Virus record (IMG/VR): IMGVR_UViG_3300044633_001982
Direction: 5' to 3' (one strand)
From: a virus
Taxonomy: Duplodnaviria > Caudoviricetes
Length of the DNA stretch: 64,000 bases
Shown here: positions 9,695 through 56,481 of the stretch, piece after piece
How positions within the stretch are numbered: the first letter of the stretch is position 1
Layout: each line of letters begins with the position of its first letter
Notes under the pieces: model-generated
What the model saw: only the letters and a program-made list of their open reading frames with translations
Database searches by the model: none
Told to the model about the DNA's origin: nothing
Position numbers and translations under genes: made by a program

Positions 9695-12600
9695 ATGTCT
9701 ACATTCCCATATAAAAACCCAATAAGTTCAGAACAATTAAATGGAGTACAATCTGTTGAAAGGTCCGAAACATTTGGAACAAATTTTTCAGTACTTGGAG
9801 TTGGTGGGTACATGGAGGTATTTAATCTTACTGATTTAGTATATACAATACCATCTGCAACATTTGGACCAATTGAGTATAGTGGTAATACCATACCAAT
9901 ACAATTTACAAAGGGGACTGGTGCGGTATTTTCACCTGATGTACTAACACTTAATTCTGATAATATATCTTCGGGAAGAAAAAGGTTGGGTATGTTGGCT
10001 TACGTCTATGAAGACGACCAAGTGTACCAATTCAGAATTGATAATTACGAATCATTATGGTCTGCGGTAACTGCAACTACTGCAATTACATTTTATGATT
10101 TTGGAACCACAATTAATAATACGACTGTTGCAAGTCAAAACTTCATTAACGCTTGGACGGCATCGACTATTGAAGGTGTTGGAGGCGCAACACACGCTAC
10201 CGCTATTTGGAAAAAATACGGTTCAACTGGAAGTACCTCATCCGCAAGTACTTTATATATTACAGGTACAGGAATTAATTCCACAATAAGATGTGGGGTT
10301 AATAATACGGCTGCGGGTGATTTTGGAGGTGCTCTTGCGGGTTCAGGTAATACCGCTTCAGGTAATTATTCATTTGTTGGTGGAGGACAAGGTAACACCT
10401 CAAGTAATTATTTTTCAACAATCGGAGGAGGAGGTTTTCATACATCAAGTGGATTTTATTCAACCGTAGGTGGTGGACGTTGTAATACATCAAGTTCCTA
10501 TAACTCAACCGTAAGTGGGGGATATTGTAACACCTCAAGTAGTAAATACTCAACTGTTGGTGGTGGATATAAAAACAACTCAAGTAGTAAATACTCAACC
10601 GTAGGTGGTGGAGTTGGTAATACTGCAAGTGGTTACAACTCAACCGTAGGTGGTGGAGTTGGTAATACCGCAAGTAGTTATAACTCAACCGTAAGTGGGG
10701 GATATCAAAACACCTCAAGTAGTAAATACTCAACCGTAAGTGGGGGATATCAAAACACCGCAAGTGGTAATAACTCAACTGTAGGTGGAGGACAAGGTAA
10801 CACCGCAAGTTCTTATTACTCAACCGTAGGTGGAGGACAAGGTAACACCTCAAGTAGTGAATACTCAACTGTTGGTGGTGGTAAATGTAATATAGTTACT
10901 GGTAAAGGTGTGTGCTCCTCAATTTTAGGGGGTAACTATAATAGTGTTGAATCACAGGCTTCCTCAATTTTAGGAGGATTAGGTAATATTGTTAAATCTT
11001 ATGCTGGTAACATTAATGGTGGAGTCTCTAATATTATTGGTAAGGGTATAACGTATTCAAATCTATATTGTACGAATTCTGGTTATAATAGAGTATATCT
11101 TAGTGGGGATGTTACAGCGTTATACCCTAATGGTGACACTGTCCAATTTTTTAATAATTATGATGGTAATTTAATTAAAGGTGATATTACTAATTCATCA
11201 TATAGTGGGGGGTATACTTGTTTGGATTTATCAGTGAATACTGGGTCAAATGTATATAGTACTCCAATTATTAATCTTAATAACGTAGGTATCTATGGAT
11301 GTTTCAATACCATCAATGGAGGGTATGTAAATAGTATTAGTTCTCAATATTACGCAACAATTGGAGGGGGGCATACAAATTGCGCAACAGGAAATGGGTC
11401 GACAATAGGTGGAGGTGAAGATAATGAGTCAATTGGGCCGGTATCAACCATAGGTGGAGGAAATGGTAACACTACAAATGGAAATGGGTCGACAATAGGT
11501 GGAGGGAGTGTTAACACTGCAAATTGTTTTTGGTCGACAATAGGTGGAGGAAATAGTAACACTGCAACTTGCGATTATTCAATAGTAGGTGGTGGGTATA
11601 AAAATACCTCAAGTGGTTGTTACTCTTCTGTATTAGGAGGTTTAATAAATTGTGCTTCAGGTAACTCATCCATAATTGGGGGTGGTAAGTGTAATTGGGC
11701 TAATGGAGGGTGTGCGACCGTAAGTGGGGGGTATAAAAACTATTCAAACGGACCTTCTTCATTTATTGGAGGGGGACAATTAAATACCGGAACATCTGTT
11801 AATAGTGTTATCGCAGGTGGACAAGTAAACTGTGTCACAGGTAGCTCAGGAACTATTGGTGGTGGTTATAAAAATATTTCGTATGGTGACTTTAGTACTA
11901 TTAGTGGTGGTTATTTTAACTGTGCGGTAGGAGGATGTTCATCAATTTTAGGTGGTTATAAAAACAATTCTTGTGGAACTCATAGTGCGGTTGTTGGAGG
12001 TACTGGTAATAATGCTGTTGGAACTTGTTCATTTATTGGAGGAGGAAGTTCAAACTCAGCAACAGGACTAACCTCAACAATTGGTGGGGGTATTAATAAC
12101 TGTGCTTATGGAGCTTGTTCATCTGTTCTTGGCGGAAAATGTAATACTTCATCAGGAATATATTCAACCATATCAGGAGGGTATAGAAACTTTTCTTGTG
12201 GTTCTTATAGCTCAGTAGTTGGTGGTAGATTTAATACCTCGTCAGGAATTTACTCAACCATATCAGGGGGATACCGAAATATTGTATCAGGTTGTACTTC
12301 GTTTATTGGTGGTGGTACTTTAAACTGTTCTTGTGGAAATCAGTCATCAATACTTAACGGACAGTCAAATATTATCACTCCTTCATTTGCGAATGTTACA
12401 ATATTAAATGGTTCCTCAAATACGGGTAATACAAGTAATAGTGTAATTTTAGCGGGATGTTCAAACATTCTATCAGGAGCAAGTTCAAAATTTGCGTATA
12501 CAATTATTGGTAATGGATGTTTAAATAGGGTTTTAGGTGATACATCAAATATTTTAAACGGATTTAATAATTTAGTAAGTTCCCTTGGAACGTTTACAAC

Positions 12601-15600
12601 AATCCTAAATGGATGTTGTAATTCCGCATGTTCTATTTCATCAACTATTAGTGGAGGGTATAAAAACACAACAAGTGGGTCATATAGTTTTATAGGGGGT
12701 GGTAGGAACAATACCACTAGTAATATCTATGGTTCAATTATTAATGGTACCGGAAATACCTCATCGTCTGTTTCATCATTAATTGGTAACGGTATTGGTA
12801 ATACTGTCTCATCAAGATATGGTAGTGTAATTAATGGTATATGTAATTTATCACAAGGAGCTTCTTTTAACACCATCACTAATGGATGTTTGAATAACAT
12901 ATGTGGTAAAACCTCTTGTTTTTCAAGTATTATTAATGGTAGTGGTAATACAATTAATACGTCAACATACTCATTTATAGGTAATGGTAGTGGTAATACA
13001 TTATCAGCAAACACAACAGGGTCATTCATTTCTAATGGTTATAACAATATTGTTTCGGGGTGTAGCTCTTATATAGGTAATGGTAACTCTAATACTATAA
13101 GTGGTAATTATTCCGCAATTATTAATGCCGGTAAAGGATTTACCTATGGGGGAAGTATTATATGTGGTTCACACTCAACAATAATAAGTAATAATGGAAA
13201 CGTTGGTAAATGTGGGGGATGGATTTGTGGGGACTCAAATTTAATCGGTAATTCAACATCATCTTGTATTTGGCGTAATACTTTTTCATTACAAATGAAC
13301 ACCAATTGCTCTCAAATTATTGATGGTAATGATAAAGGATGTTCTTATAATCAAATTATTGGAGGTACTAATAGTTTTGTTTGTGGTAGTTACGCGACCA
13401 CTGTTATTAATGGATTTGGACATCAGATTAATAATGTGACTTACGGTTTTGTTGGTAATGGTAGTCATGTTATGGGAGGTCATAATAATGTTACAACGTC
13501 GGGTTATACATCAATAATAAATGGAAATAGTAATATTATTTGTTTTTCATCTCATTCGTTTATTGGTGGAGGGACATCAAACAGAATATGTGGGGCAGCT
13601 AAAAATTTGACAGGTGTTTGGTCATTTATTGGTAGTGGTTTTGGTAACGGAACTTGTGGAGGTACACCTGATTGGAACAATTTAGTATTTTCACCATCAG
13701 GTGCTGTAACTCAATCATCAGGAACTTTTTCATTTATTGGAAATGGATTTCAAAATAATACGACAGGAAGCGGGTCAACGGTTGTTAACGGTTATTGTAA
13801 TTATAACAATGCTGATTGGTCATTTGTGGGTAATGGTAGTGGTAATACATTAAATGCGTGTTACTCAACTGTTGTTAATGGAATTGGTAACTGTATTTGT
13901 AATTTAGCATATTACGGCTCAATACTTGTTGGAAGTGGTAATACTAATAGTGGTTGTTATTCTACTATTGTAAGTGGTAATAGAAATAATATAGTTTCAA
14001 GACCATCTTCATTTATTGGTGGTGGGTGTTGTAATATTATAAGTGCTAACGTTTCTACATTTTTAATTACTGTTGTTGGAGGATGTTGTAATATTGGTTC
14101 AGGAGGTAATTCATTTATAGGTGCTGGAAGTTGTAACTCTAATAGTGGTGGGACATCATTTATTGGTGCGGGAGCTTGTAACACAGTATCATCAAGCTAT
14201 TCTTCAATTGTTGGTGGAAGAGGGAATACTATTAATACTGGTTCTTATTCATCTATTTTAGGTGGGATTTCAAATACTGTTTCTGGAGGTTATAGTGCGG
14301 TTTTAGGAGGATGTGGTAACACCTCAAGTAGTAAATATTCAACTATTGGCGGGGGATGTTTGAATACTAATTCAAGTGTTGCAGGATTTATAGGTGGTGG
14401 TCTTAGAAACTCAGGACTTACAGGTAATTATGTTACTGTAGTTGGAGGTGAATTAAATTGTACAATAGGTGCTTGGTCATTTATTGGTGGAGGACAATGT
14501 AATAGAAGTTGTTGTTCTTATTCTTTTATTGGTGGAGGACAATGTAATGTTATTTCAGGACAAAGTACGACAATTGGTGGAGGGTTTAAAAATTCTGCGT
14601 GTTGTGACTTTGCGTTTTTAGGAGGGGGGTATCAAGGGATATCAAATGGGTGTTATTCAGTATTAGGAGGAGGTTTAAATAATATTTCTTGTTTATTCTC
14701 AACATCTGTTTTAGGAGGTGCTAATAATTCTGGTCATACTTCATACTCATTTATTGGTGGTGGTATTTGTAATGCGGTTACTTCAGGTAGTGATTGTTCA
14801 GTAATTAATGGTGGATTCTGTAATAGGATATCTAATTTAAATTCATTTGTTGGTGGAGGAGGGTGTAATTCGGTTACAGGTCAATTTAGTGGTATTGTTG
14901 GAGGTAGTGGAAATACTGTGTCGTCTAATTTTTCATTCGCTGCTGGATGTGGATTAACCGCTTCTGTGGCATGTACATTCTATTCTAATAATTTTTGTGG
15001 AACCACTTCAGTTAACTCTCCAAGTTTTAGCGGTTCTGTTGGTACTATTTCAGGAACAAAAGGAAGTATAACTATAAGCGGTAGTTCCGTAGGAGCGTTA
15101 ACCACATTTTGTGGAAGTGGAACAGTCGGAGGCGCTAGTTACATAGATTTTATTAGAGTTACCAATAACTCAGGAGGTGCAACAAACCCAAATAAAACTT
15201 TTAGAGTGAATGGTACAGGAGGACTTGAAGTCGTTAACAGCACTTATGGTACAATTATACTCTCACTTACGGATGCCGGAGTATTAAGTACACCAGGAGG
15301 TGGAACATCCGATTTAAGAAGAAAAATAAATGTTCAGTATATTAATGATGAAATCACACCACATATTTTAAATCTAAAACCTGTTAAATTTGAATATAAA
15401 GATTATAGTGGTACAACAAGACACGGTTTTGTAGCACAAGATGTACTTATTGCATACCCTGAATTAGTGCTTGGCGATGGTGAAAAAGAAGACGGAACAT
15501 ACGGACTAGATTATGATGGTATTTTATCTCTAACAGTTAAATCATTACAAGAAACAATATTAAGAGTTGAAAAACTTGAAAAAGAAATTGAATTACTTAA

Positions 15601-15619
15601 AAATTCATCTTCACAATAA
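9695..15619 (+). CDS. Giant tail fibre/spike with Gly/Ser/Asn/Cys beta-solenoid repeats and C-terminal Peptidase S74 intramolecular chaperone
   Basis: 1974 aa; ~15-aa repeats GGGxxNxxSxxYSTV. C-terminal SDLRRKINV...LKPVKFEYK...GFVAQD...DY plus coiled coil is the S74 signature (Ser codon at 15308). Confidence 0.85.
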   Translation: MSTFPYKNPISSEQLNGVQSVERSETFGTNFSVLGVGGYMEVFNLTDLVYTIPSATFGPIEYSGNTIPIQFTKGTGAVFSPDVLTLNSDNISSGRKRLGMLAYVYEDDQVYQFRIDNYESLWSAVTATTAITFYDFGTTINNTTVASQNFINAWTASTIEGVGGATHATAIWKKYGSTGSTSSASTLYITGTGINSTIRCGVNNTAAGDFGGALAGSGNTASGNYSFVGGGQGNTSSNYFSTIGGGGFHTSSGFYSTVGGGRCNTSSSYNSTVSGGYCNTSSSKYSTVGGGYKNNSSSKYSTVGGGVGNTASGYNSTVGGGVGNTASSYNSTVSGGYQNTSSSKYSTVSGGYQNTASGNNSTVGGGQGNTASSYYSTVGGGQGNTSSSEYSTVGGGKCNIVTGKGVCSSILGGNYNSVESQASSILGGLGNIVKSYAGNINGGVSNIIGKGITYSNLYCTNSGYNRVYLSGDVTALYPNGDTVQFFNNYDGNLIKGDITNSSYSGGYTCLDLSVNTGSNVYSTPIINLNNVGIYGCFNTINGGYVNSISSQYYATIGGGHTNCATGNGSTIGGGEDNESIGPVSTIGGGNGNTTNGNGSTIGGGSVNTANCFWSTIGGGNSNTATCDYSIVGGGYKNTSSGCYSSVLGGLINCASGNSSIIGGGKCNWANGGCATVSGGYKNYSNGPSSFIGGGQLNTGTSVNSVIAGGQVNCVTGSSGTIGGGYKNISYGDFSTISGGYFNCAVGGCSSILGGYKNNSCGTHSAVVGGTGNNAVGTCSFIGGGSSNSATGLTSTIGGGINNCAYGACSSVLGGKCNTSSGIYSTISGGYRNFSCGSYSSVVGGRFNTSSGIYSTISGGYRNIVSGCTSFIGGGTLNCSCGNQSSILNGQSNIITPSFANVTILNGSSNTGNTSNSVILAGCSNILSGASSKFAYTIIGNGCLNRVLGDTSNILNGFNNLVSSLGTFTTILNGCCNSACSISSTISGGYKNTTSGSYSFIGGGRNNTTSNIYGSIINGTGNTSSSVSSLIGNGIGNTVSSRYGSVINGICNLSQGASFNTITNGCLNNICGKTSCFSSIINGSGNTINTSTYSFIGNGSGNTLSANTTGSFISNGYNNIVSGCSSYIGNGNSNTISGNYSAIINAGKGFTYGGSIICGSHSTIISNNGNVGKCGGWICGDSNLIGNSTSSCIWRNTFSLQMNTNCSQIIDGNDKGCSYNQIIGGTNSFVCGSYATTVINGFGHQINNVTYGFVGNGSHVMGGHNNVTTSGYTSIINGNSNIICFSSHSFIGGGTSNRICGAAKNLTGVWSFIGSGFGNGTCGGTPDWNNLVFSPSGAVTQSSGTFSFIGNGFQNNTTGSGSTVVNGYCNYNNADWSFVGNGSGNTLNACYSTVVNGIGNCICNLAYYGSILVGSGNTNSGCYSTIVSGNRNNIVSRPSSFIGGGCCNIISANVSTFLITVVGGCCNIGSGGNSFIGAGSCNSNSGGTSFIGAGACNTVSSSYSSIVGGRGNTINTGSYSSILGGISNTVSGGYSAVLGGCGNTSSSKYSTIGGGCLNTNSSVAGFIGGGLRNSGLTGNYVTVVGGELNCTIGAWSFIGGGQCNRSCCSYSFIGGGQCNVISGQSTTIGGGFKNSACCDFAFLGGGYQGISNGCYSVLGGGLNNISCLFSTSVLGGANNSGHTSYSFIGGGICNAVTSGSDCSVINGGFCNRISNLNSFVGGGGCNSVTGQFSGIVGGSGNTVSSNFSFAAGCGLTASVACTFYSNNFCGTTSVNSPSFSGSVGTISGTKGSITISGSSVGALTTFCGSGTVGGASYIDFIRVTNNSGGATNPNKTFRVNGTGGLEVVNSTYGTIILSLTDAGVLSTPGGGTSDLRRKINVQYINDEITPHILNLKPVKFEYKDYSGTTRHGFVAQDVLIAYPELVLGDGEKEDGTYGLDYDGILSLTVKSLQETILRVEKLEKEIELLKNSSSQ
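10376..10880 (+). repeat. 45-bp (15-codon) near-identical tandem repeat array within the fibre gene
   Basis: For example caaggtaac recurs at 10793 and 10838; units share tcaaccgta(g/a)gtgg...aa(c/t)acc(t/g)caagt. Confidence 0.85.
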
Positions 15620-15638
15620 CTAATACATATTTTATATT
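15610..15638 (+). promoter_or_regulatory. Sigma70-like promoter TTCACA-N17-TATATT for the GT/SET/sulfotransferase cassette
   Basis: Exact 17-nt spacing; overlaps the fibre stop codon and lies 18 nt before the ATG at 15657. Confidence 0.5.
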
Positions 15639-15656
15639 TTAATCAAAGCTTTGATT

Positions 15657-16547
15657 ATGAATATAATTTTCCAAATTAATGGTGGTATAGGTAAATGTAT
15701 TTTGGCAACCGCAGTTACCGAAGTAATTAAAAAAAAATACCCAAATTCTAAACTTATTGTTGTCTCAGGATATCCTGATGTTTTCTTAAACAATCCACAT
15801 GTTGACCGAGCGTTTAATTTTGGTGAACATTCTTATTTTTATTCTGACTATATTGAAGATAAAGAATTCAAACTTTTGGCTCATGACCCATACCTTGAAA
15901 CTAACCATATTAATAAAACAGAACATTTAATTGAAACTTGGTGTAAACTATTTGATTTAGAATATAATGGTGAACAACCAAACATATATCTAACTGAGAG
16001 AGAGATTAATTTCTTTTCAAGAAAATACACAACTGATAAACCAATCATGGTTATTCAAACTAATGGAGGGGTTGAACAAAATTTGAAATACTCTTGGGCT
16101 CGTGACATTCCATTCCATATTGTTGAAAGTGTGATTGAAAAATTTAAATATGGTTACACTATTTTTCACCTGAAAAGAGAAGACCAACCATCTTTCGCTA
16201 ATACAATCCCTGTCACTGATACTTTTAGGTCAGTTGCAACTTTAATTGCGATAAGTAATAAAAGATTTTTTATGGATAGTTTTGGTCAACATGTTGCGGG
16301 AGCTCTAAAATTAGAATCCACAGTTTTGTGGATTGTTAACTCACCAAAAGTATTTGGATATGAAACAAATAAAAATATTGTTTCAAACCAATTCACAAAA
16401 AAACCAGAATTAAAAATGTCATATTTAAACAAGTTTAACATAATGGGAGAACCTTTGGAATTCCCATATAATGATGAGTTTGAAATGTTTGACATTGAGA
16501 ACATATTAAATTCTTTAAGTAACAATGAACATCCCGATACCAAATAA
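15657..16547 (+). CDS. GT9 (heptosyltransferase)-fold glycosyltransferase-like protein, copy A
   Basis: N-terminal GGIGK.....KYPNSKL.V...P.VF.NNP.VD and C-terminal DSFGQHVAGAL (GT9-like DS...H.A.A). ATG at 15657 preferred over TTG at 15651. Confidence 0.7.
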   Translation: MNIIFQINGGIGKCILATAVTEVIKKKYPNSKLIVVSGYPDVFLNNPHVDRAFNFGEHSYFYSDYIEDKEFKLLAHDPYLETNHINKTEHLIETWCKLFDLEYNGEQPNIYLTEREINFFSRKYTTDKPIMVIQTNGGVEQNLKYSWARDIPFHIVESVIEKFKYGYTIFHLKREDQPSFANTIPVTDTFRSVATLIAISNKRFFMDSFGQHVAGALKLESTVLWIVNSPKVFGYETNKNIVSNQFTKKPELKMSYLNKFNIMGEPLEFPYNDEFEMFDIENILNSLSNNEHPDTK

Positions 16548-16911
16548 AATTGAAGTGAAATCGTCCCCAATTCACGGATTTGGGGTTTTCGCGATTGAAA
16601 AAATATTAAAAGATGAAATAATTGAAACCTGTTATTCAATTTTTTTCAAAACAGATTTAGGGTCAAACGATGATATATTACTAAAATATCGTTTCTCATA
16701 TCCTTGTGGGGCATCTCCAATAAAGTACGCAATACCTCTTGGGTATGGGTGTATTTACAATCATAGTGATGATAATAATGCAACATGGACATGTGATTCA
16801 GATAATGGAATGTATTATTTTATTGCGGTTAAAGATATTGAGCCAGGTGAAGAAATTTGTACATCATATGGAAAAAAAGAATATTGGGAATCAGTAAAAA
16901 AAATATATTAA
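16525..16911 (+). CDS. SET-domain protein-lysine methyltransferase
   Basis: SPIHGFGVFA, YNHSDDNNA and DIEPGEEICTSYG are the SET motifs. Confidence 0.9.
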   Translation: MNIPIPNKIEVKSSPIHGFGVFAIEKILKDEIIETCYSIFFKTDLGSNDDILLKYRFSYPCGASPIKYAIPLGYGCIYNHSDDNNATWTCDSDNGMYYFIAVKDIEPGEEICTSYGKKEYWESVKKIY

Positions 16912-16913
16912 AA

Positions 16914-17738
16914 ATGGAAAGATTATTTTTTCAGAGTTCACTACCACGAGCAGGTAGTACTCTACTACAAAACATTTTAGCTCAAAACCCTGACATATAC
17001 GCAACACCAACAAGTGGTGTTTTAGAGTTAGTGTACGCGGCTAGAGCAAACTATAGTAATTCACCTGAATTCAAAGCTCAGGACCCTGAACTTATGAAAA
17101 ACGCATTTTTATCTTTTTGTAAAGAGGGGTTAACTGGTTTTTATGAAAGTATTACTGATAAAAAATATGTGGTTGATAAAAGTAGAGGATGGGGTGTCCA
17201 TTATGGATTTTTACAACAAATTGTTGATAAACCAAAAGTTGTTTGTATGGTGAGAGACCTTAGAGATATCTATACCTCTATGGAAAAAAACTTTAGAAAA
17301 AATCAGCACAAAGATTTTGGGATTGTAAATCATTCGGATTTGAAAGGAACATCAACACCTAAAAGAATAGACATATGGGCAAACTCACAACCTGTTGGTA
17401 TGGCGATTGAAAGACTACAAGAAATTTTCAGACAAGGTATTAATGAAAATATGATGTTTGTTAAGTATGAGGATTTATGTTTGTATCCCGATTTAATCAT
17501 GAGAAAAATTTATGAATATTTTGAAATACCTTATTTTGAACATGATTTTGAAAACATTGAACAAATAACAAAAGAAGATGATGAAGTGTATGGTATTTTT
17601 GGGGACCATAAGATAAAAAAGACTTTAGAGTTATTACCATCGGATGCTCAAAAAATTTTAGGTTCAGATATTTGTGATTGGATTTATAATAATTATGGGT
17701 GGTATAACGAGATTTTTAAGTACCCTAAAAATATGTAG
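16914..17738 (+). CDS. PAPS-dependent sulfotransferase (Sulfotransfer_3-like), copy A
   Basis: 5'-PSB loop SLPRAGSTLL and 3'-PB motif VRDLRDIYTS; ATG at 16914 is the likely start. Confidence 0.88.
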   Translation: MERLFFQSSLPRAGSTLLQNILAQNPDIYATPTSGVLELVYAARANYSNSPEFKAQDPELMKNAFLSFCKEGLTGFYESITDKKYVVDKSRGWGVHYGFLQQIVDKPKVVCMVRDLRDIYTSMEKNFRKNQHKDFGIVNHSDLKGTSTPKRIDIWANSQPVGMAIERLQEIFRQGINENMMFVKYEDLCLYPDLIMRKIYEYFEIPYFEHDFENIEQITKEDDEVYGIFGDHKIKKTLELLPSDAQKILGSDICDWIYNNYGWYNEIFKYPKNM

Positions 17739-24980: not shown

Positions 24981-25006
24981 AAAGGGTCCAATAGGACCCT
25001 TTTTTT
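24981..25006. terminator. Rho-independent terminator between convergent genes
   Basis: AAAGGGTCC-AATA-GGACCCTTT hairpin followed by a T-run; lies between the stops at 24961 (+) and 25036 (-). Confidence 0.85.
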
Positions 25007-36132: not shown

Positions 36133-36164
36133 TTTGGGGATATTGTTTTTTCATCGTATATTTG
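36133..36164 (+). promoter_or_regulatory. Bacteroidota primary-sigma promoter TTTG-N20-TATATTTG
   Basis: Perfect match to -33 TTTG / -7 TAnnTTTG, upstream of 36178 and the sigma gene. Confidence 0.75.
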
Positions 36165-46352: not shown

Positions 46353-46383
46353 CAAATATAATAAAAAAAATTAATTTACCAAA
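46353..46383 (-). promoter_or_regulatory. Bacteroidota primary-sigma promoter TTTG-N19-TATATTTG
   Basis: Perfect match upstream of the exported-protein gene. Confidence 0.7.
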
Positions 46384-47249
46384 CTAATCAATTTATTAAT
46401 ATCAAACATTTCGTCAATAGACATATAAGGACATTCATGATTTGGACCTTCAAATGAATAGTCAAAAAGATATGAGTCAATTAACTTAACTGTATCAGTT
46501 GGTAACTTTGGTGATATATTATTATGTATACTATATCCAAAATTATTTGGTGATGTTCCTACCCATATAACATTAGATTTAAGATTTAGAGCTGCCGCAG
46601 CATGTTGTAAACATGAGTCAATTAACACCCTTTTGTCTGATGATAAAATGATTAAACATAAATCAACTGCGGACAATTCATAATCAATAACTTCGGCATT
46701 TGGAAGTTGTCTTGATGATTTTTTACAAATTTGAATTATATGGTGTGTTTCACTAAATTTATTAGCAATTGATGATGACACATCAAATGGGATATCTCTG
46801 GTCCATGAATAAGATTGATTTGAATTAAACGCGCCCCCATTTGTTTGAATGAGTAATATTGGTTTTTCTCTTTGCCATTTAGACAATGAACGTTTTTGAG
46901 AAATATTTAAACTAATACTTGGTGTTTGATTGGTATACTCAATCCCGAGTAAGTCACACCAATTTTCAATTAGATGTGATTTTTTAAGTATATGATTTGT
47001 TTGATAATATGGTTCTTGTCGAAAGATTATTGTGTCTTTATCTTTAATATAATCATCATAAAAATATTGAGTGGTACCTAATTTGTATACTCTATAAACT
47101 GAAGAATGGTTTAAGAATACTTCAGGGTATGAGGCGACTACTACAATTTTTCTGTCTTCGTATTTCTCTTTTAATGATGTTAATAGAGACGTGGCGGCAA
47201 TGTTTTTACCCAATCCTCCCTGTATGTGCCAAACAATATATTTTTCCAT
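46371..47249 (-). CDS. GT9-fold glycosyltransferase-like protein, copy B
   Basis: GGLGK, DSCLQHAAAAL; shares long motifs with 15657..16547 (YPxVFLN, TNHIxKxxHLIExWC, IQTNGG, YSWxRDIP). ATG at 47249. Confidence 0.7.
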   Translation of the reverse strand: MEKYIVWHIQGGLGKNIAATSLLTSLKEKYEDRKIVVVASYPEVFLNHSSVYRVYKLGTTQYFYDDYIKDKDTIIFRQEPYYQTNHILKKSHLIENWCDLLGIEYTNQTPSISLNISQKRSLSKWQREKPILLIQTNGGAFNSNQSYSWTRDIPFDVSSSIANKFSETHHIIQICKKSSRQLPNAEVIDYELSAVDLCLIILSSDKRVLIDSCLQHAAAALNLKSNVIWVGTSPNNFGYSIHNNISPKLPTDTVKLIDSYLFDYSFEGPNHECPYMSIDEMFDINKLISLVN

Positions 47250-47250
47250 A

Positions 47251-47694
47251 TTAATTTTTAGAACCAATTCTTATAAATTTATACCATACTCTTTCGTGGA
47301 AGAAATAAACAATTGGTTTAAGTAACAATTCTCCCACACCTAATAACGATGATAACTCAATTGATGCCCCCAATGAGTACGCAACTCCTACGGTAATTAA
47401 AGTACCTAAAATTCTGTAAGATATTGTTTTTAAAATATGTCTGGTTAATACCGATTCTTGTTTAACTGTTGTTATATATGCTACAGTGTTTTTAATCTCA
47501 CAGTGACCCTCACAACTGATATGCCATTTATATTCGTTTAATTCAGGTATCCAGTCTTTAGTAGTATAAGTGTGACCATCAACAACAATATCAGAAACTA
47601 AAATTTCAGAACCATTCTCAATCAATCTCCATCTATCACATTCATTAGTTGAGTGAGTGTTAAATCTTATTTGAAATGTTTTAATTTTTTTCAT
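47251..47694 (-). CDS. Small beta-domain fused to DUF2061-like membrane domain
   Basis: C-terminal KTISYRILGT...ELLLKPIVYFFHERVW matches the DUF2061 pattern. Confidence 0.7.
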   Translation of the reverse strand: MKKIKTFQIRFNTHSTNECDRWRLIENGSEILVSDIVVDGHTYTTKDWIPELNEYKWHISCEGHCEIKNTVAYITTVKQESVLTRHILKTISYRILGTLITVGVAYSLGASIELSSLLGVGELLLKPIVYFFHERVWYKFIRIGSKN

Positions 47695-48089
47695 AGTTTA
47701 CCTTCCAATTTCATTTGTTCTCTTATTTTAGTTGCAGAAATATCGTGTATTTCTTGAGGGGGAATTCTTTCAATAATATCATACCCAACACCTCTACCAA
47801 ATTCTATTGAACATATATCAGGTATTACCATCACTTTAACTCTATCACTCAATTCAGAATAGTGTGACTCAATATTACTCTTAACTTCTTGAGCGGTGAA
47901 TGGATTTTTTTCATCAGGTTCAATGTCTCTGATACAAATCAATACATTCTTACCTTCATCCATCGCTTGTTTAAATAACTCTTGGTGTCCTTTATGTAGT
48001 GGTTGCCATCTACCGACAAACATTGCAAATTGTCCATCTTTTGGTTTCAAAGATGACTGAACGTGAACTTTTTTATCCCAGTTACTCAT
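47691..48089 (-). CDS. HIGH-motif nucleotidyltransferase (cytidylyltransferase-like); candidate minimal ATP sulfurylase
   Basis: GRWQPLHKGH and ISATKIRE motifs; overlaps cysC. Confidence 0.75.
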   Translation of the reverse strand: MSNWDKKVHVQSSLKPKDGQFAMFVGRWQPLHKGHQELFKQAMDEGKNVLICIRDIEPDEKNPFTAQEVKSNIESHYSELSDRVKVMVIPDICSIEFGRGVGYDIIERIPPQEIHDISATKIREQMKLEGKL

Positions 48090-48514
48090 TTTTTATTAAA
48101 AGGTATTAAATCAAGACATTCGTCTATAGTTTTATTTGTTGTGTCAATATCAATAAAGTTTTCAGTTGGTTGTTCATACTCCTTAACAAAGTTTTGTTCT
48201 CTACCTCTGATTTCACTTGTGTGAACATAGATTTCACAAACTTCATTAGTTTCTTTTAATGAGTCCCTCATTCTTTTATAAGGAGCAACAACAGAAATTA
48301 CAACTGTAAATCCCTTGTGGTCTAAAAAACGAGCCAAATCAACAACAGATTGGATATTTTTAATTCTACCTTCAGGTGAATAATCAAAGTTTTGAAATAA
48401 CTCCCTCAAACCATCTCCATCAACATTAATACAATTATCTGAACACTTCTCAATTAAAGCATTCGCCAATGTTGTTTTTCCTGAGCCAGGTTGACCTGTG
48501 AACCAATAAATCAT
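48086..48514 (-). CDS. cysC: Adenylyl-sulfate (APS) kinase
   Basis: WFTGQPGSGKTT, VDGD.LR, DYSPEGRIKN, VISVVAPY. Confidence 0.88.
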   Translation of the reverse strand: MIYWFTGQPGSGKTTLANALIEKCSDNCINVDGDGLRELFQNFDYSPEGRIKNIQSVVDLARFLDHKGFTVVISVVAPYKRMRDSLKETNEVCEIYVHTSEIRGREQNFVKEYEQPTENFIDIDTTNKTIDECLDLIPFNKK

Positions 48515-48768
48515 AGTTGTGTATAAGTTTTACCTGATTGAATCGTATCGTTTATTTCCGTTAATTGAGTTTCAGTTAATGCTGACATAAACCAATCTTT
48601 ACTTTTCATAACTTCTAAATGTTTGTAATTTCTCTCGACTGTAGTTTTTTTAACTTCAATTTTTTCTGTTGGTAATTTAGAACCATCAATAATTCCATTT
48701 ATTAGTGTCACCGAATTAAAGGCTGAATTAATTGATTTAGTTGGGTTTGGTATTTCATCGTTTTCCAT
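48511..48768 (-). CDS. Small fibre-associated (assembly chaperone-like) protein
   Basis: SVTLIN.II...VERNYKHLEVM..KDW...I..GK.Y resembles, from memory, a small family found next to phage tail fibre genes; unverified. Confidence 0.45.
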   Translation of the reverse strand: MENDEIPNPTKSINSAFNSVTLINGIIDGSKLPTEKIEVKKTTVERNYKHLEVMKSKDWFMSALTETQLTEINDTIQSGKTYTQL

Positions 48769-48773
48769 AAAGC

Positions 48774-49589
48774 TTATTTATAATTAAATTTATTGAAGAA
48801 CCAATTATAGTGTTCGTATAATCTATTACTATTATCAGCACCTAATATTTCGTTATAATCTTCTTTTGGTTGAGATAATGTATTTTTTATTGAGTGGTCA
48901 CCAAAAATTCCGTGTATGACATCATTTTCAATAGTTAACTGCTCAATATTATTAAAGTCGTGTTGATAAAAAGGTATCTCCAAATAATCGTAAATCCGTT
49001 TTAACTCTTTATCAGGATTTGATGTTAGGTCTTCAAATCTAACAAAAAGAATATCTTTGTCATATCCTTGGTGAATTGACTCAAATAACCATTCTAATGA
49101 TGGACCAATTGGGGGAGATATTGAAAAATGGTCAACTCTTGATGTTGTTGTCATATTTTTTAATTCATTGACATTTACTAATAGAGGGTCTTTATGTGAA
49201 TTTTTTCTATAGTTTTTTTCCATTGAAGAGAAAATTGCCCTTAGGTCCCTAACCATACAAATAATTTTAGGTGTCCCGTAAAACCACTTTAAGAAATGAT
49301 AGTTACCTATCCACGCTCTACTCTTATCAATAACATAGGGTCTATCAGTTATGTTATCGAAAAAACCCGTTAAACCTTTTTCACAAAAACTTTTTAATCC
49401 CTCTCTCATTTCATCAGGATTTTGTGCTTTAAATGCGTCACCTGTTGTATATATGGTTCTAGCTTGTAAAAGTAGCTCAATCACTCCTGAAGTTGGTGTT
49501 GAATAAATTTCAGGATTTTGCATTAATATGTTTTGAATTAATGTTGACCCTGCTCTTGGTAATGATGCGTTAAAAAATATTTTCTTCAT
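48774..49589 (-). CDS. PAPS-dependent sulfotransferase, copy B
   Basis: SLPRAGSTL and VRDLRAIFSS; clearly paralogous to 16914..17738 (TPTSGV, FKAQ.P, EGLTGF, DKSR.W, GIFGDH). Confidence 0.88.
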   Translation of the reverse strand: MKKIFFNASLPRAGSTLIQNILMQNPEIYSTPTSGVIELLLQARTIYTTGDAFKAQNPDEMREGLKSFCEKGLTGFFDNITDRPYVIDKSRAWIGNYHFLKWFYGTPKIICMVRDLRAIFSSMEKNYRKNSHKDPLLVNVNELKNMTTTSRVDHFSISPPIGPSLEWLFESIHQGYDKDILFVRFEDLTSNPDKELKRIYDYLEIPFYQHDFNNIEQLTIENDVIHGIFGDHSIKNTLSQPKEDYNEILGADNSNRLYEHYNWFFNKFNYK

Positions 49590-49595: not shown

Positions 49596-49624
49596 ATATT
49601 AACCCACAAAACTAAAAATGTCAA
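49596..49624 (-). promoter_or_regulatory. Sigma70-like promoter TTGACA-N17-TAATAT for the sulfation cassette
   Basis: Exact consensus -35 and 17-nt spacer, between the fibre stop (49627) and the sulfotransferase ATG (49589). Confidence 0.65.
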
Positions 49625-49626: not shown

Positions 49627-52600
49627 TTAAGCTAATAAAACTTTGTAAGAATTTCCGTTAATTCTTATTTCCCAAGTCCTTGAGGAACTGCACGACTCAG
49701 TTGTTATAGTACCAATAGGAATTGAGGAACTACCTACAACAAATTGATTATTTCCAGTTGCCGTAGCATAACCACCAAGAATAATTGAATAATTATAATT
49801 TCCTGAATTTGTATTATTACCAATTGCAATATTTCGGTACCCTGAGGTGTTTTGATATAATGATTTATATCCAAGTGCAATATTTGATTGTCCATAGTTA
49901 GAAAATAAAACACAATAGCCCAATCCAATATTATGAGAACCACCATTACTTCCATACATTGATTTAAGACCTAAAAGAATATTATAACTACCACCGCAAG
50001 ACGTTCTTCCAAAACTATAATATCCAATAGCAATGTTGTGATTTCCAACAGGTACTGGACCAGTATAACCAATTGATTTAGTCCCTATTGCAATGTTATT
50101 ATTACCTCCATTAGCCCTATATAGAGCACCACTACCTATTGCAACATTTTCACTGCCATATACATTAAAAGTGAGAGTATTATGTCCTAAACTCACATTT
50201 AAATTTCCATAATAGTTGCAAGATTGAGATTCTTGCCCTATCGCAATATTACCTGAAAATTTTGAGTAATTTGTTGTGTAGTACGGCGCTCCTGAGTTTG
50301 TTGTACCACCATATAGGGAATTCAATCCGATTGCAATATTTGATAGTCTACTTTCACCACCAACCCAATCATGTAATGTATTGGGCCCAATTGCTATATT
50401 ATCAGATTTTTTGTCCGATTTACGAAGTGATTGATAACCTATCGCAATATTTCTAACCCCATCAGTATTATAACATAACGCCTGATTACCAATTGCAATG
50501 TTGTCTCTACCTGTACTTGTATAGTATAATGAGTTATATCCTAATGAAATATTGTTACTACCTGTTGTAATTTCTCCACCTGAATTTCTACCTAACGCAA
50601 TGTTGTGTACACCTGTAGTATTACTATATAAAGAACTTCTACCTATTGCAATATTATAATTACCCGTAAAATTGTTGGCCATTGTACCTCTACCTAACGC
50701 AACATTACCACAACCTTGGTTGGAATAACATCCTGAATTACTCATCAAAGCTCTTCTACCAATTGCAATATTTTCACAACCATTATTATTATTTAACATT
50801 GAACACCTACCAATTGCAACGTTAAAATCAGGTTTTGGTCCTTGTGCTCCTGTATTGTAATACAATGCCGCCTGACCAATTGCAATGTTATGGTCTGAAG
50901 CCGAAGTATTGTTTCTTAAAGAATCATATCCGATTCCAATATTACCAATACCACTTGTTAAACAATTCGAGTTTTGTCTTATAGCATTAGTCCCAATTGC
51001 AATATTCTTGGAACCGTTGGGATTACAATACAATGATGTAACACCTAAGGAAATATTATCATCACCTGCACATTTATTTTTTTGACTTTTGAAACCCAAT
51101 GCAATGTTACGAGAAAAACTAATTGAACATCCGTAACCATATAACGCATAATCACCTATACCGATATTACAATAACCTGTAGACAACTTTTTTAAAGAAT
51201 TAGTACCTATCCCAATATTACGAGAAATACTAGTCCCCTCACGTAATGATTTATCACCAATTGCAATATTTCCAAACATACATTGAGAGATATTATAAAG
51301 AGAAGAACTCCCCATAGATATGTTATTATTCCCACATGCTTGGTACATATTTTTATATCCAATGGATATATTGTAATTCAGGCCATAACATACTGATTGA
51401 GAACTGGACATAGATTTATGACCTAAGGATATGTTAAAATCACCTATGGTTTTACTTCTTAAAGACTTATACCCAATTGATGTATTACCTTGTCCAAGAT
51501 TACTTGTTTGTGACTGTTGTCCTATCGCAATGTTATTCCCTCCAGGAGCCACTCCACTAAATGCAACACCACCAATTGATATATTAGTACATACGTTAAA
51601 ATTACCTCTACCAACACGAACACCATTCACATTCAACGTTGGTGAGGTTGCGGCACCATCAAATGTTAACAATGATTCTGCAACTGCGCCTCCACTACCA
51701 TCAGATGTTAAAACCTGATTGTTTGAACCTGGCACCGTGAACTGAGGTGACCCACTAAAAACTAATGTATTTGTTGACGCTGAAGTAATTGATATATTAA
51801 CACCACTAAAATTTATAAAAGTTCCAGTATTTGCGGAGAATTGTGTGGTACCACTAATTCTTACAGATTGAAATGATGATGGTAAGTTTTGATATGTGGT
51901 TGCAGATATTGTAGTTGCAGTTAATCCTTGTAGTGAAGTATTTCCTGTTACGGTTAAGTTGCCATTAATAGTTCCACCACTTTTATCAAATTTATTACTT
52001 ATATCGGTTTGAATTGTTTGAATTATTGAACATCCGCTTAATGTACCACAAGTCAAAGCCGAATTGTCTGAAAATGGTGTTATTCCATAAGAATAATGTT
52101 GGGTACCTTCAGTGACTAAAGTTATTGAATGTGATTGATTACTAGTATTCGTTGCTCTTACTTTTACAACAATTCTGTCAGTTGTATTTATTGATGAACC
52201 CGAATAATATCCGTCCGTTAATTGCATTGATGGATTTGGGGAATTTGTAGTTACTGGAGCCGGGTCAGTTGTAACAAGTAGAGTTTCGGTTCCCCCTGTG
52301 GTTCTTAAATAAACCTCACAGAATATATCAAAAGATGCGTTACTATTTTGTTTGAAAGAATGAAGATAAAAGCTCCAATATCCTGCAGGTATTAGAGATG
52401 CGTTTGGATATCCAGTTGGTGTTTGAAATGAGGTAATCGTACTAGTTACTCCATTGTTAATTGTAACAGCCGTTATTTGTTGTGAATTTGTTGTTCCACT
52501 TGGACTAAATTCTCTATATGGTGGTTGTGAGTTTGATAAATTTAAATAATATACTTGACCTCCAGGTCCTCCTATTGGAAGTCCAGTAACCGTAAAAGTT

Positions 52601-53010
52601 CCTCCTGTATTATTTAAAAAGGTAATTTCTCCATTTGTATAAGTTCCTCCTGTAACATAAACATCGGTTGGTAAATTCTGATAAGTTGTTGCTGAAATTG
52701 TGTTAGCAGTTAGTCCACTTTGGAATATAGTCCCCCCCGATACAGTTCCACCACTTAACGGAAGATATACACCTGTTGTTCCTCCAGCAGGACCCCAATT
52801 GGCGTTACCTGAAGCATCACAAGTTAATACATAACCATTTTGTTCAGTTCCATTAGAATACGTAAATCCACTATTTATAGTAAGTCCCGATAAAAAGATT
52901 GGATTAACAGGAATGGCTCCACCGATACGATAAACAATACCTGTTGATAAGTCAGATTGTAAGACGTAATTATAAGAATCTTTAATTAATTGGTTTTTAA
53001 TATCGGCCAT
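49627..53010 (-). CDS. Tail fibre with NxAIG (YadA-head-like) beta-solenoid repeats, Cys-rich
   Basis: 1127 aa; YLPLSGGT and FDKSGGTINGNL fibre motifs; about 30 N(I/V)(A/S/G)(I/L)G repeats; C-terminal WEIRINGNSYKVLLA; no S74 chaperone. Confidence 0.82.
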   Translation of the reverse strand: MADIKNQLIKDSYNYVLQSDLSTGIVYRIGGAIPVNPIFLSGLTINSGFTYSNGTEQNGYVLTCDASGNANWGPAGGTTGVYLPLSGGTVSGGTIFQSGLTANTISATTYQNLPTDVYVTGGTYTNGEITFLNNTGGTFTVTGLPIGGPGGQVYYLNLSNSQPPYREFSPSGTTNSQQITAVTINNGVTSTITSFQTPTGYPNASLIPAGYWSFYLHSFKQNSNASFDIFCEVYLRTTGGTETLLVTTDPAPVTTNSPNPSMQLTDGYYSGSSINTTDRIVVKVRATNTSNQSHSITLVTEGTQHYSYGITPFSDNSALTCGTLSGCSIIQTIQTDISNKFDKSGGTINGNLTVTGNTSLQGLTATTISATTYQNLPSSFQSVRISGTTQFSANTGTFINFSGVNISITSASTNTLVFSGSPQFTVPGSNNQVLTSDGSGGAVAESLLTFDGAATSPTLNVNGVRVGRGNFNVCTNISIGGVAFSGVAPGGNNIAIGQQSQTSNLGQGNTSIGYKSLRSKTIGDFNISLGHKSMSSSQSVCYGLNYNISIGYKNMYQACGNNNISMGSSSLYNISQCMFGNIAIGDKSLREGTSISRNIGIGTNSLKKLSTGYCNIGIGDYALYGYGCSISFSRNIALGFKSQKNKCAGDDNISLGVTSLYCNPNGSKNIAIGTNAIRQNSNCLTSGIGNIGIGYDSLRNNTSASDHNIAIGQAALYYNTGAQGPKPDFNVAIGRCSMLNNNNGCENIAIGRRALMSNSGCYSNQGCGNVALGRGTMANNFTGNYNIAIGRSSLYSNTTGVHNIALGRNSGGEITTGSNNISLGYNSLYYTSTGRDNIAIGNQALCYNTDGVRNIAIGYQSLRKSDKKSDNIAIGPNTLHDWVGGESRLSNIAIGLNSLYGGTTNSGAPYYTTNYSKFSGNIAIGQESQSCNYYGNLNVSLGHNTLTFNVYGSENVAIGSGALYRANGGNNNIAIGTKSIGYTGPVPVGNHNIAIGYYSFGRTSCGGSYNILLGLKSMYGSNGGSHNIGLGYCVLFSNYGQSNIALGYKSLYQNTSGYRNIAIGNNTNSGNYNYSIILGGYATATGNNQFVVGSSSIPIGTITTESCSSSRTWEIRINGNSYKVLLA

Positions 53011-56190: not shown

Positions 56191-56481
56191 ATGAATAATG
56201 TAGAAGCTGAAATATATTTAAACAACCTTTTAGGATTCTTTGAAAAAAATCCTAATGACCTTATTGACCTTATCGGTGAAATGAATAAGGATGCTTTCTA
56301 CAAAAAATTAAGAGAAAAAGTTTACGAAAACGCTGAAAAGGGTGAGGAAATACAACTCACCCAAAAACAGCTTATTGATATTGTAGTTGGTATGTACGAC
56401 GAAATGACTAAAAAGGGTGAAAAGATAGAAGTATTAGTCCCTGTTATTAAAACAAATTACGGAATTATTTGGTTGAATTAG
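56191..56481 (+). CDS. Hypothetical protein
   Basis: 96 aa. Confidence 0.65.
   Translation: MNNVEAEIYLNNLLGFFEKNPNDLIDLIGEMNKDAFYKKLREKVYENAEKGEEIQLTQKQLIDIVVGMYDEMTKKGEKIEVLVPVIKTNYGIIWLN

What the first reader, a model, noticed from the sequence alone, without database searches (positions are those of the whole stretch)
15610..17738. Cassette A: GT9-like + SET methyltransferase + sulfotransferase wedged between virion genes, with its own early-type promoter
Seen: three enzymes interrupt an otherwise purely structural operon. A TTCACA-N17-TATATT element overlaps the fibre stop, mirroring TTGACA-N17-TAATAT at the end of the second fibre. Inference: the modifying enzymes are expressed before their late-expressed substrates, and glycosyl, methyl and sulfate transfer act on the same virion component.
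Basis: partly seen in the sequence, partly recalled or inferred. Interest (0 to 1): 0.8.

Follow-up and report, generated by a model that had tools for sequence, protein, structure and literature searches.

The report
Phage fibre-modification enzyme cassette
A large lake phage carries three soluble enzymes (a sugar-transferase, a protein-lysine methyltransferase and a sulfate-transferase) welded to the repeat-rich outer part of a giant tail-fibre gene; they most likely decorate that fibre chemically, which would be the first sulfated phage particle, but the proposed private "early promoter" is no better than chance in this phage.

Summary
The three enzymes are real. 15657-16547 is a GT9-fold glycosyltransferase, 16525-16911 a minimal SET methyltransferase with its catalytic motifs intact, and 16914-17738 a PAPS-type sulfotransferase closest to tyrosylprotein sulfotransferases and NoeE. 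They follow a 1974-aa fibre made of about 100 fifteen-residue Gly/Ser/Thr/Asn/Tyr repeats.

- In a close relative, exactly window 10226-17738 (fibre repeats plus all three genes) is replaced by 311 bp.
- Among fibres sharing the same N-terminal anchor, repeat-rich ones carry the cassette and repeat-free ones do not.
- The window holds a second, paralogous fibre + GT9 + sulfotransferase + APS-kinase set.
- Relatives add a true Aah/TibC-type protein O-heptosyltransferase.

The promoter claim fails here. TTCACA-N17-TATATT exists, but such sites are at chance frequency. The host is Bacteroidota, which uses another consensus, and no terminator separates the fibre from the cassette. However, 14 of 50 relatives have a canonical Bacteroidota promoter at that spot.

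SET is a late addition, found in 7 of 49 loci. Acceptor, donor sugar and timing are unproven. Other reports of this scan cover the same stretch and cassette B.

The parts
9695..15619 (+). Fibre A, 1974 aa. It has an N-terminal ~175-aa anchor and about 100 copies of the 15-aa repeat [IV]GGGxxNT[SA]S[GS]xYST. Composition is G 18.7%, S+T 25%, N 11%, Y 4.8%, C 3.9%, with 72 NxS/T sequons. The C-terminal Peptidase_S74 domain (residues 1872-1926) is an intramolecular chaperone.
10226..17738 (+). Exchangeable module: the distal, repeat-rich part of fibre A plus GT, SET and ST. In relative L069 exactly this stretch is replaced by 311 bp, and homology resumes at 17739, the first base after the ST stop.
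15610..15638 (+). TTCACA-N17-TATATT sigma-70-like element overlapping the fibre stop. It contains TATATTTT (15633-15640), a 7 of 8 match to the Bacteroidota -7 box TAnnTTTG, but has no TTTG -33 box. Kept only in the closest relative, L001.
15657..16547 (+). GT9-fold (GT-B) glycosyltransferase-like protein, 296 aa, soluble. It keeps the C-terminal DSFxQHxAxAL nucleotide-sugar motif. Lys13 stands where GT9 and BAHT enzymes have the catalytic Asp.
16525..16911 (+). Minimal SET-domain methyltransferase, 128 aa. The GxG, NHS and catalytic Tyr motifs are kept. The nearest solved structure is PBCV-1 vSET.
16914..17738 (+). PAPS-dependent sulfotransferase, 274 aa. The 5'-PSB motif PRAGST and the 3'-PB motif VRDLRD..S are invariant in the family.
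49627..53010 (-). Fibre B, 1127 aa, with NIAIG-type (YadA-head-like) repeats. It is followed by the paralogous cassette B.
46371..49589 (-). Cassette B, with these genes:
- sulfotransferase 2 (48774-49589, 51% identical to ST)
- APS kinase (48086-48514)
- small NMNAT-like adenylyltransferase (47691-48089)
- DUF2061 protein (47251-47694)
- GT9-like 2 (46371-47267, 39.5% identical to GT)
It supplies PAPS for both cassettes. In relative L001/L146 the APSK-NT-DUF2061 genes lie directly after ST of cassette A.
49596..49624 (-). TTGACA-N17-TAATAT element in the 37-nt gap between the fibre B stop and the sulfotransferase 2 start.
24981..25002 (.). Bidirectional terminator hairpin (9 pairs). It is the clearest terminator-like site downstream of fibre A and ends the 528-24961 gene array; only weaker terminator-like hairpins (5-8 pairs) lie in between, inside coding sequence.

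Best explanation
Cassette A is a fibre-accessory post-translational modification module of an uncultured jumbo phage from lake water, probably of Bacteroidota.

Proposed mechanism:
- The three soluble enzymes are made in the infected cell's cytoplasm, most simply from the same late transcript as fibre A.
- They act on the roughly 100 fifteen-residue beta-roll repeats of that fibre.
- The GT9-fold enzyme puts a sugar on repeat Ser/Thr. This parallels the Aah/TibC heptosyltransferases, which glycosylate the repeats of the neighbouring adhesin gene.
- The sulfotransferase then uses PAPS, supplied by the phage's own APS kinase and adenylyltransferase in cassette B. It sulfates either that sugar (NoeE-like) or the conserved repeat Tyr (TPST-like).
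- In this clade only, the SET enzyme methylates repeat Lys.

Shown:
- the enzyme folds and cofactor motifs;
- the strict GT-ST pairing;
- the co-inheritance of repeats and cassette;
- the duplication of the whole arrangement;
- the PAPS-supply genes.

Inferred:
- the acceptor, the donor sugar and the order of steps;
- the benefit, which may be an anionic glycan coat that tunes adsorption, solubility or protease resistance.
For: (1) Enzyme identities.

(2) Natural swap. In L069 the neighbours are 80-86% identical in DNA and the fibre's first 175 aa are 91% identical. Window 10226-17738 is replaced there by 311 bp, with breakpoints inside the fibre gene and at the ST stop.

(3) Anchor survey of 69 loci, counting complete fibres with at least 5 kb downstream:
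- Repeat-rich fibres carry ST, APS kinase and GT downstream in L146, L119, L120, L121 and the window.
- Ten distinct repeat-free fibres have none.
- There is one exception, L135.

(4) Among 68 loci found through GT, made non-redundant:
- ST follows GT in 50 of 53.
- APS kinase is present in 39 of 49.
- Fibre A-like repeats are adjacent in 39 of 48. In four of these the fibre has moved to the opposite strand.

(5) A second paralogous fibre + ST + GT9 set lies in the same window.

(6) Eighteen relatives carry a methyltransferase + GT4 + BAHT fusion in the cassette. L017:5702-9196 scores 247.8 bits on TIGR04414 hepto_Aah_TibC, above the cutoff of 200. TibC and Aah heptosylate Ser in adhesin repeats (PMC4358343).

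(7) Members of the GT family are fused to FkbM methyltransferase or GT25 domains, which are glycan-building partners.

(8) In 74 MAG loci, mostly Bacteroidota, the same GT family has a fibre A-like repeat ORF upstream in 39 and an ST nearby in 24.

(9) Precedents exist: phage-encoded virion glycosylation (Freeman 2023, cited in PMC12619734) and tail-protein methylation needed for infectivity (PMC13445384).
Against: - No direct evidence shows that any virion protein is modified.
- The synteny loci are relatives with inherited gene order, so the counts are not independent events. The swap and anchor data amount to perhaps 3-5 independent events.
- L071 has an 824-aa fibre A-like fibre followed directly by the next structural gene, with no cassette on its 50-kb contig fragment.
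- The GT model is closer to the LPS heptosyltransferases WaaF/WaaC (1e-11) than to BAHTs (1e-6 to 1e-8). It lacks the BAHT N-terminal domain and fails TIGR04414.
- The GT9/BAHT catalytic Asp appears to be Lys.
- The fibre repeats lack the acidic context of known TPST sites: D+E is 2.9%.
- SET is clade-restricted, and its nearest characterised relative methylates histones, not structural proteins.
Confidence: 0.55

Rival explanations
1. Host-envelope remodelling. The GT9-fold enzyme and the sulfotransferase act on the infected cell's LPS core, capsule or another glycolipid. This could block superinfection or stop progeny from sticking to debris. The position next to the fibre gene would only reflect the usual hot spot for accessory genes.
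For: - The best structural matches of GT are the LPS heptosyltransferases WaaF and WaaC.
- NoeE, a glycolipid (Nod factor) sulfotransferase, matches ST as well as the TPSTs do.
- Family members are fused to the 'LPS biosynthesis' GT25 domain.
Against: - The cassette co-varies with the fibre's repeat region rather than with the phage backbone.
- Each of the two fibres has its own paralogous set.
- BAHT-type protein glycosyltransferases sit in relatives' cassettes.
- The cassette lies inside a late structural array with no terminator before it.
Confidence: 0.12
2. Mixed bag. GT and ST form a functional pair, on the fibre or on a glycan. SET is an unrelated later insertion that methylates a host or phage non-structural protein (nucleoid, ribosomal or regulatory), as vSET does with histone H3.
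For: - SET lies between GT and ST in only 7 of 49 non-redundant loci, all in the closest clade.
- Its nearest solved relative is PBCV-1 vSET, at 8e-13.
- The homologue in L080 (45% identical) sits among IMPDH/GMP-reductase, MGS-like and sigma-factor genes.
Against: - SET is translationally coupled on both sides: a 23-nt overlap with GT and a 2-nt gap to ST.
- It is lost together with the fibre repeats in L069.
- An independent homologue in L079 (47% identical) again sits with a sulfotransferase (PF03567), a 2OG-Fe(II) oxygenase, a GT25 and a PfkB sugar kinase. That is another protein/glycan modification cluster.
- The fibre repeats carry Lys at fixed positions, such as GGYKN and SSKYST.
Confidence: 0.2
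3. The cassette has its own host-sigma (early or constitutive) promoter in this genome, so the enzymes accumulate before the fibre is made.
For: - 14 of 50 distinct relatives have a canonical Bacteroidota TTTG-N17-22-TAnnTTTG promoter 14-23 nt before the GT start, against 0.24 expected.
- The window keeps a 7 of 8 match to the -7 box (TATATTTT, 15633-15640). The same variant stands before the primase gene at 29705.
- The element is conserved in L001 although its flanks have diverged.
Against: - The E. coli-type match is at chance frequency.
- There is no TTTG -33 box.
- The gap is 37 nt, with no terminator.
- No RNA data could be obtained.
Confidence: 0.25

Closest known systems
Bacterial autotransporter heptosyltransferases (BAHT: Aah/AIDA-I, TibC/TibA; TIGR04414; PDB 4rap/4rb4; PMC4358343)
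   Same: - Both are cytoplasmic GT9-fold enzymes encoded next to the gene of a long beta-solenoid adhesin built of short Gly/Ser/Thr/Asn-rich repeats, which they hyper-glycosylate on Ser.
- Relatives of this cassette contain a true family member.
- The window's GT model matches TibC, Aah and BimC.
   Different: - The window's GT has 296 aa and lacks the BAHT N-terminal iron-finger/oligomerisation part.
- It fails TIGR04414.
- It is about 12% identical to BAHTs.
- It seems to have Lys in place of the catalytic Asp110.
- The substrate would be a phage fibre, not a secreted autotransporter.
- The added sulfotransferase and SET have no BAHT counterpart.
LPS core heptosyltransferases WaaC/WaaF (CAZy GT9; PF01075; PDB 2h1h, 1psw)
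   Same: - The fold match is the best of all (E 1e-11, TM 0.6-0.7).
- The C-terminal DSGxxH-AAAL nucleotide-sugar motif is shared.
   Different: - There is no Pfam GT9 hit.
- The catalytic Asp13 position is occupied by a nearly invariant Lys.
- The genomic context is a fibre gene plus a sulfotransferase, not an LPS core operon.
Phage-encoded virion glycosylation in mycobacteriophages (Freeman et al. 2023, PMC10527164, as cited in PMC12619734)
   Same: Phage glycosyltransferase genes lie beside structural genes, and their products glycosylate the phage's own virion proteins in the cytoplasm.
   Different: - There the enzymes are GT-A/GT2-type and act on the C-termini of capsid and tail-tube subunits.
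- Here a GT9-fold enzyme sits beside a repeat fibre, coupled to sulfation with a phage-encoded PAPS supply and, in this clade, to a SET methyltransferase.
Tyrosylprotein sulfotransferases (TPST1/2; PDB 5wrj, 3ap3) and the Nod-factor sulfotransferase NoeE
   Same: - These are the nearest sequence and fold relatives of ST: TPST1 8e-10 with the family profile, Foldseek 5e-9, and NoeE 2.8e-8.
- The PAPS 5'-PSB and 3'-PB motifs are kept.
   Different: - TM is only about 0.55.
- The TPST catalytic Glu is not matched in the alignment.
- The candidate Tyr sites have no acidic flanks.
- The NCBIfam NoeE model scores 20.7 bits against a cutoff of 500.
Chlorovirus PBCV-1 vSET (A612L; PDB 1n3j)
   Same: Both are virus-encoded minimal SET domains of about 120 aa with GxG, NHS and C-terminal Tyr motifs. 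The sequence match is E 8e-13 over the whole length.
   Different: - vSET methylates host histone H3K27 in a eukaryote.
- Here the host is a bacterium, and the gene is wedged, translationally coupled, between a glycosyltransferase and a sulfotransferase behind a fibre gene.

Membership tests
CAZy GT9 / Pfam PF01075 heptosyltransferases | GT-B two-Rossmann fold most similar to WaaC/WaaF | tested here: met
   The AF2 model has pLDDT 96.4. The top 30 or so PDB hits are all GT9 (3tov, 1psw, 2h1h, 4rap), and the Swiss-Prot AFDB hits are heptosyltransferases 1-4.
CAZy GT9 / Pfam PF01075 heptosyltransferases | Family HMM above the gathering score | tested here: not met
   P0002 has no Pfam hit even at E=10. 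Only a distant fused homologue, P0234, passes (22.9 bits against 22).
CAZy GT9 / Pfam PF01075 heptosyltransferases | C-terminal D-S/T-G-x-x-H-x-A-A-A-L nucleotide-sugar binding motif | tested here: met
   The family profile aligns DSFxQHAAAAL with DSGLMHVAAAL of WaaF 1psw, at E 0.05. D207, S208, Q211 and H212 are invariant or nearly so.
CAZy GT9 / Pfam PF01075 heptosyltransferases | Catalytic Asp in the N-terminal G-D loop (WaaC Asp13, TibC Asp110) | tested here: not met
   hhalign puts GGIGK of the family on SLGD of the BAHT domain of L017, and K13 is at least 90% conserved. This is tentative, because the alignment probability is 36%. The WaaC numbering is from memory; TibC D110 is from PMC4358343.
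CAZy GT9 / Pfam PF01075 heptosyltransferases | ADP-heptose as donor | not testable with these tools
No donor could be inferred.
BAHT (TIGR04414 hepto_Aah_TibC) | Family HMM above cutoff and the extra N-terminal domain (about 100 aa) | tested here: not met
   P0002 has no NCBIfam hit. Fold hits align to BAHT residues from about 93-130 onward only. By contrast, the relative L017:5702-9196 scores 247.8 bits against the cutoff of 200.
BAHT (TIGR04414 hepto_Aah_TibC) | Encoded next to a repeat-solenoid adhesin gene that is its substrate | tested here: inconclusive
   Adjacency and co-variation with the repeat fibre are shown. The substrate relation is not shown.
SET-domain protein lysine methyltransferases (PF00856) | HMM above cutoff; GxG SAM loop, NHS motif and catalytic Tyr | tested here: met
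   The score is 51.9 bits against a cutoff of 22.4. HGFGVF, YNHS and SYG align with the corresponding vSET motifs.
PAPS-dependent sulfotransferases (PF13469/PF00685) | HMM above cutoff; 5'-PSB (PxxGS/TT) and 3'-PB (RD..S) motifs | tested here: met
   The scores are 66.9 and 45.7 bits. P11, R12, G14, S15, T16 and R114, D115, S122 are invariant in 24 homologues.
Tyrosylprotein sulfotransferase (TPST) | Catalytic Glu after the 5'-PSB helix; Tyr acceptor in an acidic context | tested here: not met
   In the profile alignment the GEET of TPST1 faces TPTSG of the family. Fibre A has D+E of 2.9%. TPST remains the closest fold, so this bears on membership, not on a possible protein-Tyr activity.
Sigma-70-type or Bacteroidota sigma-A-type promoter in front of the cassette | Match better than chance, consensus appropriate to the host, conservation in relatives | tested here: inconclusive
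   The E. coli-type match is at chance level. The window has only TTCA-N19-TATATTTT. A canonical motif is present in 14 of 50 relatives against 0.24 expected.

The most novel reading that the evidence does not exclude
The phage makes a sulfated, glycosylated and lysine-methylated tail fibre. This would be the first sulfated virion component known in any phage, using phage-made PAPS. The enzyme set would be matched to each fibre's repeat type and exchanged together with it, like a receptor-binding tip with its chaperone. A sharper form: the sulfated glycan or sulfotyrosine coat mimics the sulfated polysaccharides that Bacteroidota capture with their surface glycan-binding proteins, so it would act as bait for adsorption.
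Probability: 0.3. Interest if true: 0.85.

Novelty: new variant of a known kind. Interest (0 to 1): 0.68.

Why it matters
Phage-encoded modification of the phage's own particle is known so far for glycosylation in a few groups. Sulfation of a phage particle has, as far as the searched literature shows, not been described. The searches for phage sulfotransferase papers returned nothing relevant.

Here the GT9 + sulfotransferase pair, usually with an APS kinase, recurs in more than 100 environmental loci. The GT and ST families count about 1,900 and 3,300 proteins respectively in public data. Each time the pair is tied to giant repeat fibres.

If the fibres are the target:
- Host recognition in abundant freshwater and marine Bacteroidota phages would depend on a chemical coat invisible in the gene sequence.
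- Receptor-binding modules would have to be thought of as 'fibre plus its modifying enzymes'.
- It would also provide a simple, soluble set of enzymes for glyco-sulfation of beta-solenoid proteins.

Tried and rejected
- DNA search of the cassette against isolated phages found no match. Only distant protein matches appeared, in cyanophages, Pelagibacter phages and single-cell marine viruses.
- No whole genome is held for the window.
- No tRNA genes were found.
- RNA evidence: no RNA holder was listed for the stretch. DNA holders are about 20 lake-water metagenomes. Read laying was not used, because contigs cannot show transcript starts.
- The first attempt to scan genome contigs with the 80-sequence alignment failed for lack of a conserved stretch. 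It was repeated with a 12-sequence alignment.
- I looked for the T4-type late promoter motif TATAAATA. There are 8 and 13 copies on the two strands, about what base composition predicts (my estimate is roughly 13 per strand). One lies before fibre B and none before fibre A or GT. I dropped this line.
- Complex prediction was not used. An enzyme with its substrate is outside what that test resolves.
- I considered whether the MAG loci prove a cellular (non-phage) association. The repeat protein on the 1.02-Mb Flavipsychrobacter contig has no signal peptide and looks fibre-like, so a prophage or tailocin cannot be excluded. It is not counted as independent cellular evidence.
- I considered DNA hypermodification as the target of GT. 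Nothing links the cassette to replication genes, and it co-varies with the fibre.

Full report
**What is there**

The window is part of an uncultured, AT-rich (about 31% GC) large phage.
- It is found in about 20 lake-water metagenomes.
- CheckV estimates for related contigs imply a genome of about 300 kb.
- Its primase is nearest to Flavobacterium myophages.
- Canonical Bacteroidota promoters (TTTG-N19-21-TAnnTTTG) stand before several non-structural genes, at 36133, 56468 and 46383(-).
- The phage encodes its own sigma factor and a DnaJ.

Genes 528-24961 form one tightly packed + strand array that ends at a bidirectional terminator, 24981-25002.

**The fibre**

The gene at 9695-15619 encodes a 1974-aa protein.
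- Its N-terminal ~175-aa domain is shared by many phages.
- About 100 copies of a 15-residue unit follow, [IV]GGGxxNT[SA]S[GS]xYST. This resembles the head repeats of trimeric adhesins; that resemblance is my reading of the motif, not a family hit.
- It ends in a C-terminal Peptidase_S74 intramolecular chaperone.

**The three enzymes**

All three are soluble, with no signal peptide or membrane segment visible.
- GT (15657-16547) has no Pfam, NCBIfam or PDB sequence hit on its own.
  - It belongs to a family of about 1,900 environmental proteins.
  - The family profile hits the DSGxxH-AAAL motif of WaaF.
  - Its AF2 model (pLDDT 96.4) matches only GT9 structures at the top: 3tov, WaaF, WaaC and TibC.
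  - The loop that carries the catalytic Asp in TibC (D110, PMC4358343) reads GGIGK here, with a nearly invariant Lys. So this is a GT9-fold enzyme with a non-canonical active-site loop.
  - Family members are fused to FkbM methyltransferase or GT25 domains.
- SET (16525-16911) is a full minimal SET domain with all catalytic motifs. Its closest solved relative is chlorovirus vSET.
- ST (16914-17738) is a PAPS sulfotransferase with invariant cofactor motifs.
  - It is closest in sequence and fold to tyrosylprotein sulfotransferases.
  - The carbohydrate sulfotransferase NoeE scores equally well among Swiss-Prot models.
  - The acceptor class is therefore open.

**Link to the fibre**

Five observations tie the cassette to the fibre.

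(a) Synteny in 68 viral loci found through GT (58 non-redundant):
- ST follows GT in 50 of 53.
- APS kinase is present in 39 of 49, and a small adenylyltransferase in 33 of 49.
- SET lies between GT and ST in only 7 of 49.
- A fibre A-like repeat gene lies next door in 39 of 48. In four loci it has moved to the opposite strand.

(b) A natural swap. In the close relative L069, homology runs up to window 10225 and resumes at 17739, the first base after the ST stop. The 7.5 kb in between, which holds the fibre repeats and all three enzymes, is replaced by 311 bp that end a 281-aa fibre.

(c) An anchor survey. Among 69 loci sharing the fibre's N-terminal anchor, repeat-rich fibres carry the ST / APS kinase / GT set downstream. 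Ten distinct repeat-free fibres do not, with one exception.

(d) Duplication. The window contains a second fibre (49627-53010, -) with a different repeat. It is followed by paralogues of ST (51% identical) and GT (39.5% identical), plus APS kinase, an adenylyltransferase and DUF2061. In relative L001/L146 those PAPS-supply genes sit directly after ST of cassette A. The two cassettes therefore form one system.

(e) A bona fide protein glycosyltransferase. Eighteen relatives carry a methyltransferase-GT4-BAHT fusion in the cassette, which passes the curated Aah/TibC model.

The same GT family also sits behind fibre A-like repeat ORFs in Bacteroidota and CPR MAG contigs. It is not clear whether those are prophages or cellular loci.

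One counter-example exists. L071 has a fibre A-like fibre with no cassette on its contig fragment.

**Promoter**

- TTCACA-N17-TATATT is present, but such sites occur at chance frequency: 102 against 97.5 +/- 10.
- It is not the host's consensus. It is kept only in the closest relative.
- It sits in a 37-nt gap, with no terminator between the fibre stop and the GT start.
- Read-through from the structural array is therefore the default reading.
- Nevertheless, 14 of 50 distinct relatives have a perfect Bacteroidota promoter 14-23 nt before GT, against 0.24 expected. The window retains a 7 of 8 match to the -7 box. An internal promoter is thus a family trait that may be weak or lost here.
- No RNA data were available.

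**SET**

- SET is a late addition to an older GT-ST(-APSK) module.
- Its tight coupling to both neighbours and its co-loss with the fibre repeats argue that it belongs to the module.
- An independent homologue in L079 sits with another sulfotransferase, a 2OG-Fe(II) oxygenase, a GT25 and a sugar kinase. This also argues for a role in a modification cluster.
- L080 shows a non-glyco context, so a separate target remains possible.

**Verdict**

- The fibre-modification reading is the best supported, but it rests on comparative evidence only (confidence 0.55).
- The specific promoter and timing claim is not supported for this genome.
- Virion glycosylation and adhesin heptosylation are known. A fibre-linked glyco-sulfation module with a phage PAPS supply and a SET enzyme is a new variant.
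- I found no paper describing it.
- Earlier notes of this scan cover cassette B and the duplicated arrangement on the same DNA.

Noticed in passing
window 47691-48514 (-): An APS kinase is followed by a 131-aa NMNAT-like adenylyltransferase with an HxGH motif; its best NCBIfam hits are NMN adenylyltransferases, far below cutoff. The pair follows ST in 33-39 of 49 related loci. This is unresolved here.
   Followed up: partly
L017:5702-9196 (also L018, L020, L027, L034, L038, L056 and others): An 1165-aa three-domain protein in relatives' cassettes: SAM methyltransferase + GT4 (Glycos_transf_1) + a true Aah/TibC-type O-heptosyltransferase domain (TIGR04414, 247.8 bits). This is a BAHT enzyme in a phage, next to a 1921-aa repeat fibre.
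   Followed up: partly
L079:5695-9076: In an unrelated viral contig, a SET homologue (47% identical) sits in a cluster of a PfkB sugar kinase, a Sulfotransfer_2, a 2OG-Fe(II) oxygenase (prolyl/lysyl-hydroxylase type), SET and a GT25. The set recalls collagen-type Lys hydroxylation and glycosylation.
   Followed up: no
window 8585-9682 and 17760-20129: The two genes that flank the fibre/cassette module start with a shared ~65-aa N-terminal domain (44% identical), followed by Thr/Pro-rich linkers. The downstream one carries leucine-rich repeats, and its best NCBIfam hit is the LRR part of SlrP. They look like interchangeable tips on a common anchor.
   Followed up: no
window 36133-36164, 56468-56499, 46383-46353 (-), near-match before 29705: Canonical Bacteroidota sigma-A promoters (TTTG-N19-21-TAnnTTTG) stand directly before non-structural genes. 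The full motif occurs 8 times in the window, against 3.6 +/- 1.7 in shuffles.
   Followed up: partly
L098-L134, L143, L147, L149-L152 (anchor survey loci): Many contigs end inside fibres that share the same N-terminal anchor but are even richer in Gly (25-31%) and Ser/Thr (40-50%), with open frames of up to more than 3,500 aa. Assemblies break in these repeats, so their downstream genes are mostly unseen. In L102 a BAHT-type gene follows on the opposite strand.
   Followed up: no
L154-L227 (MAG contigs): The GT family is common in Flavipsychrobacter/Chitinophagaceae MAGs, often with two or three copies per MAG and tandem GT-GT pairs. It also occurs in CPR MAGs (Paceibacterota, Parcubacteria, Saccharibacteria) with an ST on the opposite strand. 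These may be host candidates, mis-binned phage or prophage.
   Followed up: partly
window 44831-45760 and 53916-54755: The phage encodes a full-length DnaJ (J domain, CxxCxGxG domain and C-terminal domain) and a D12-class N6-adenine DNA methyltransferase. DnaJ/DnaK are described as hallmarks of the freshwater 'moraphage' lineage predicted to infect Flavobacteriia (PMC12619734).
   Followed up: no
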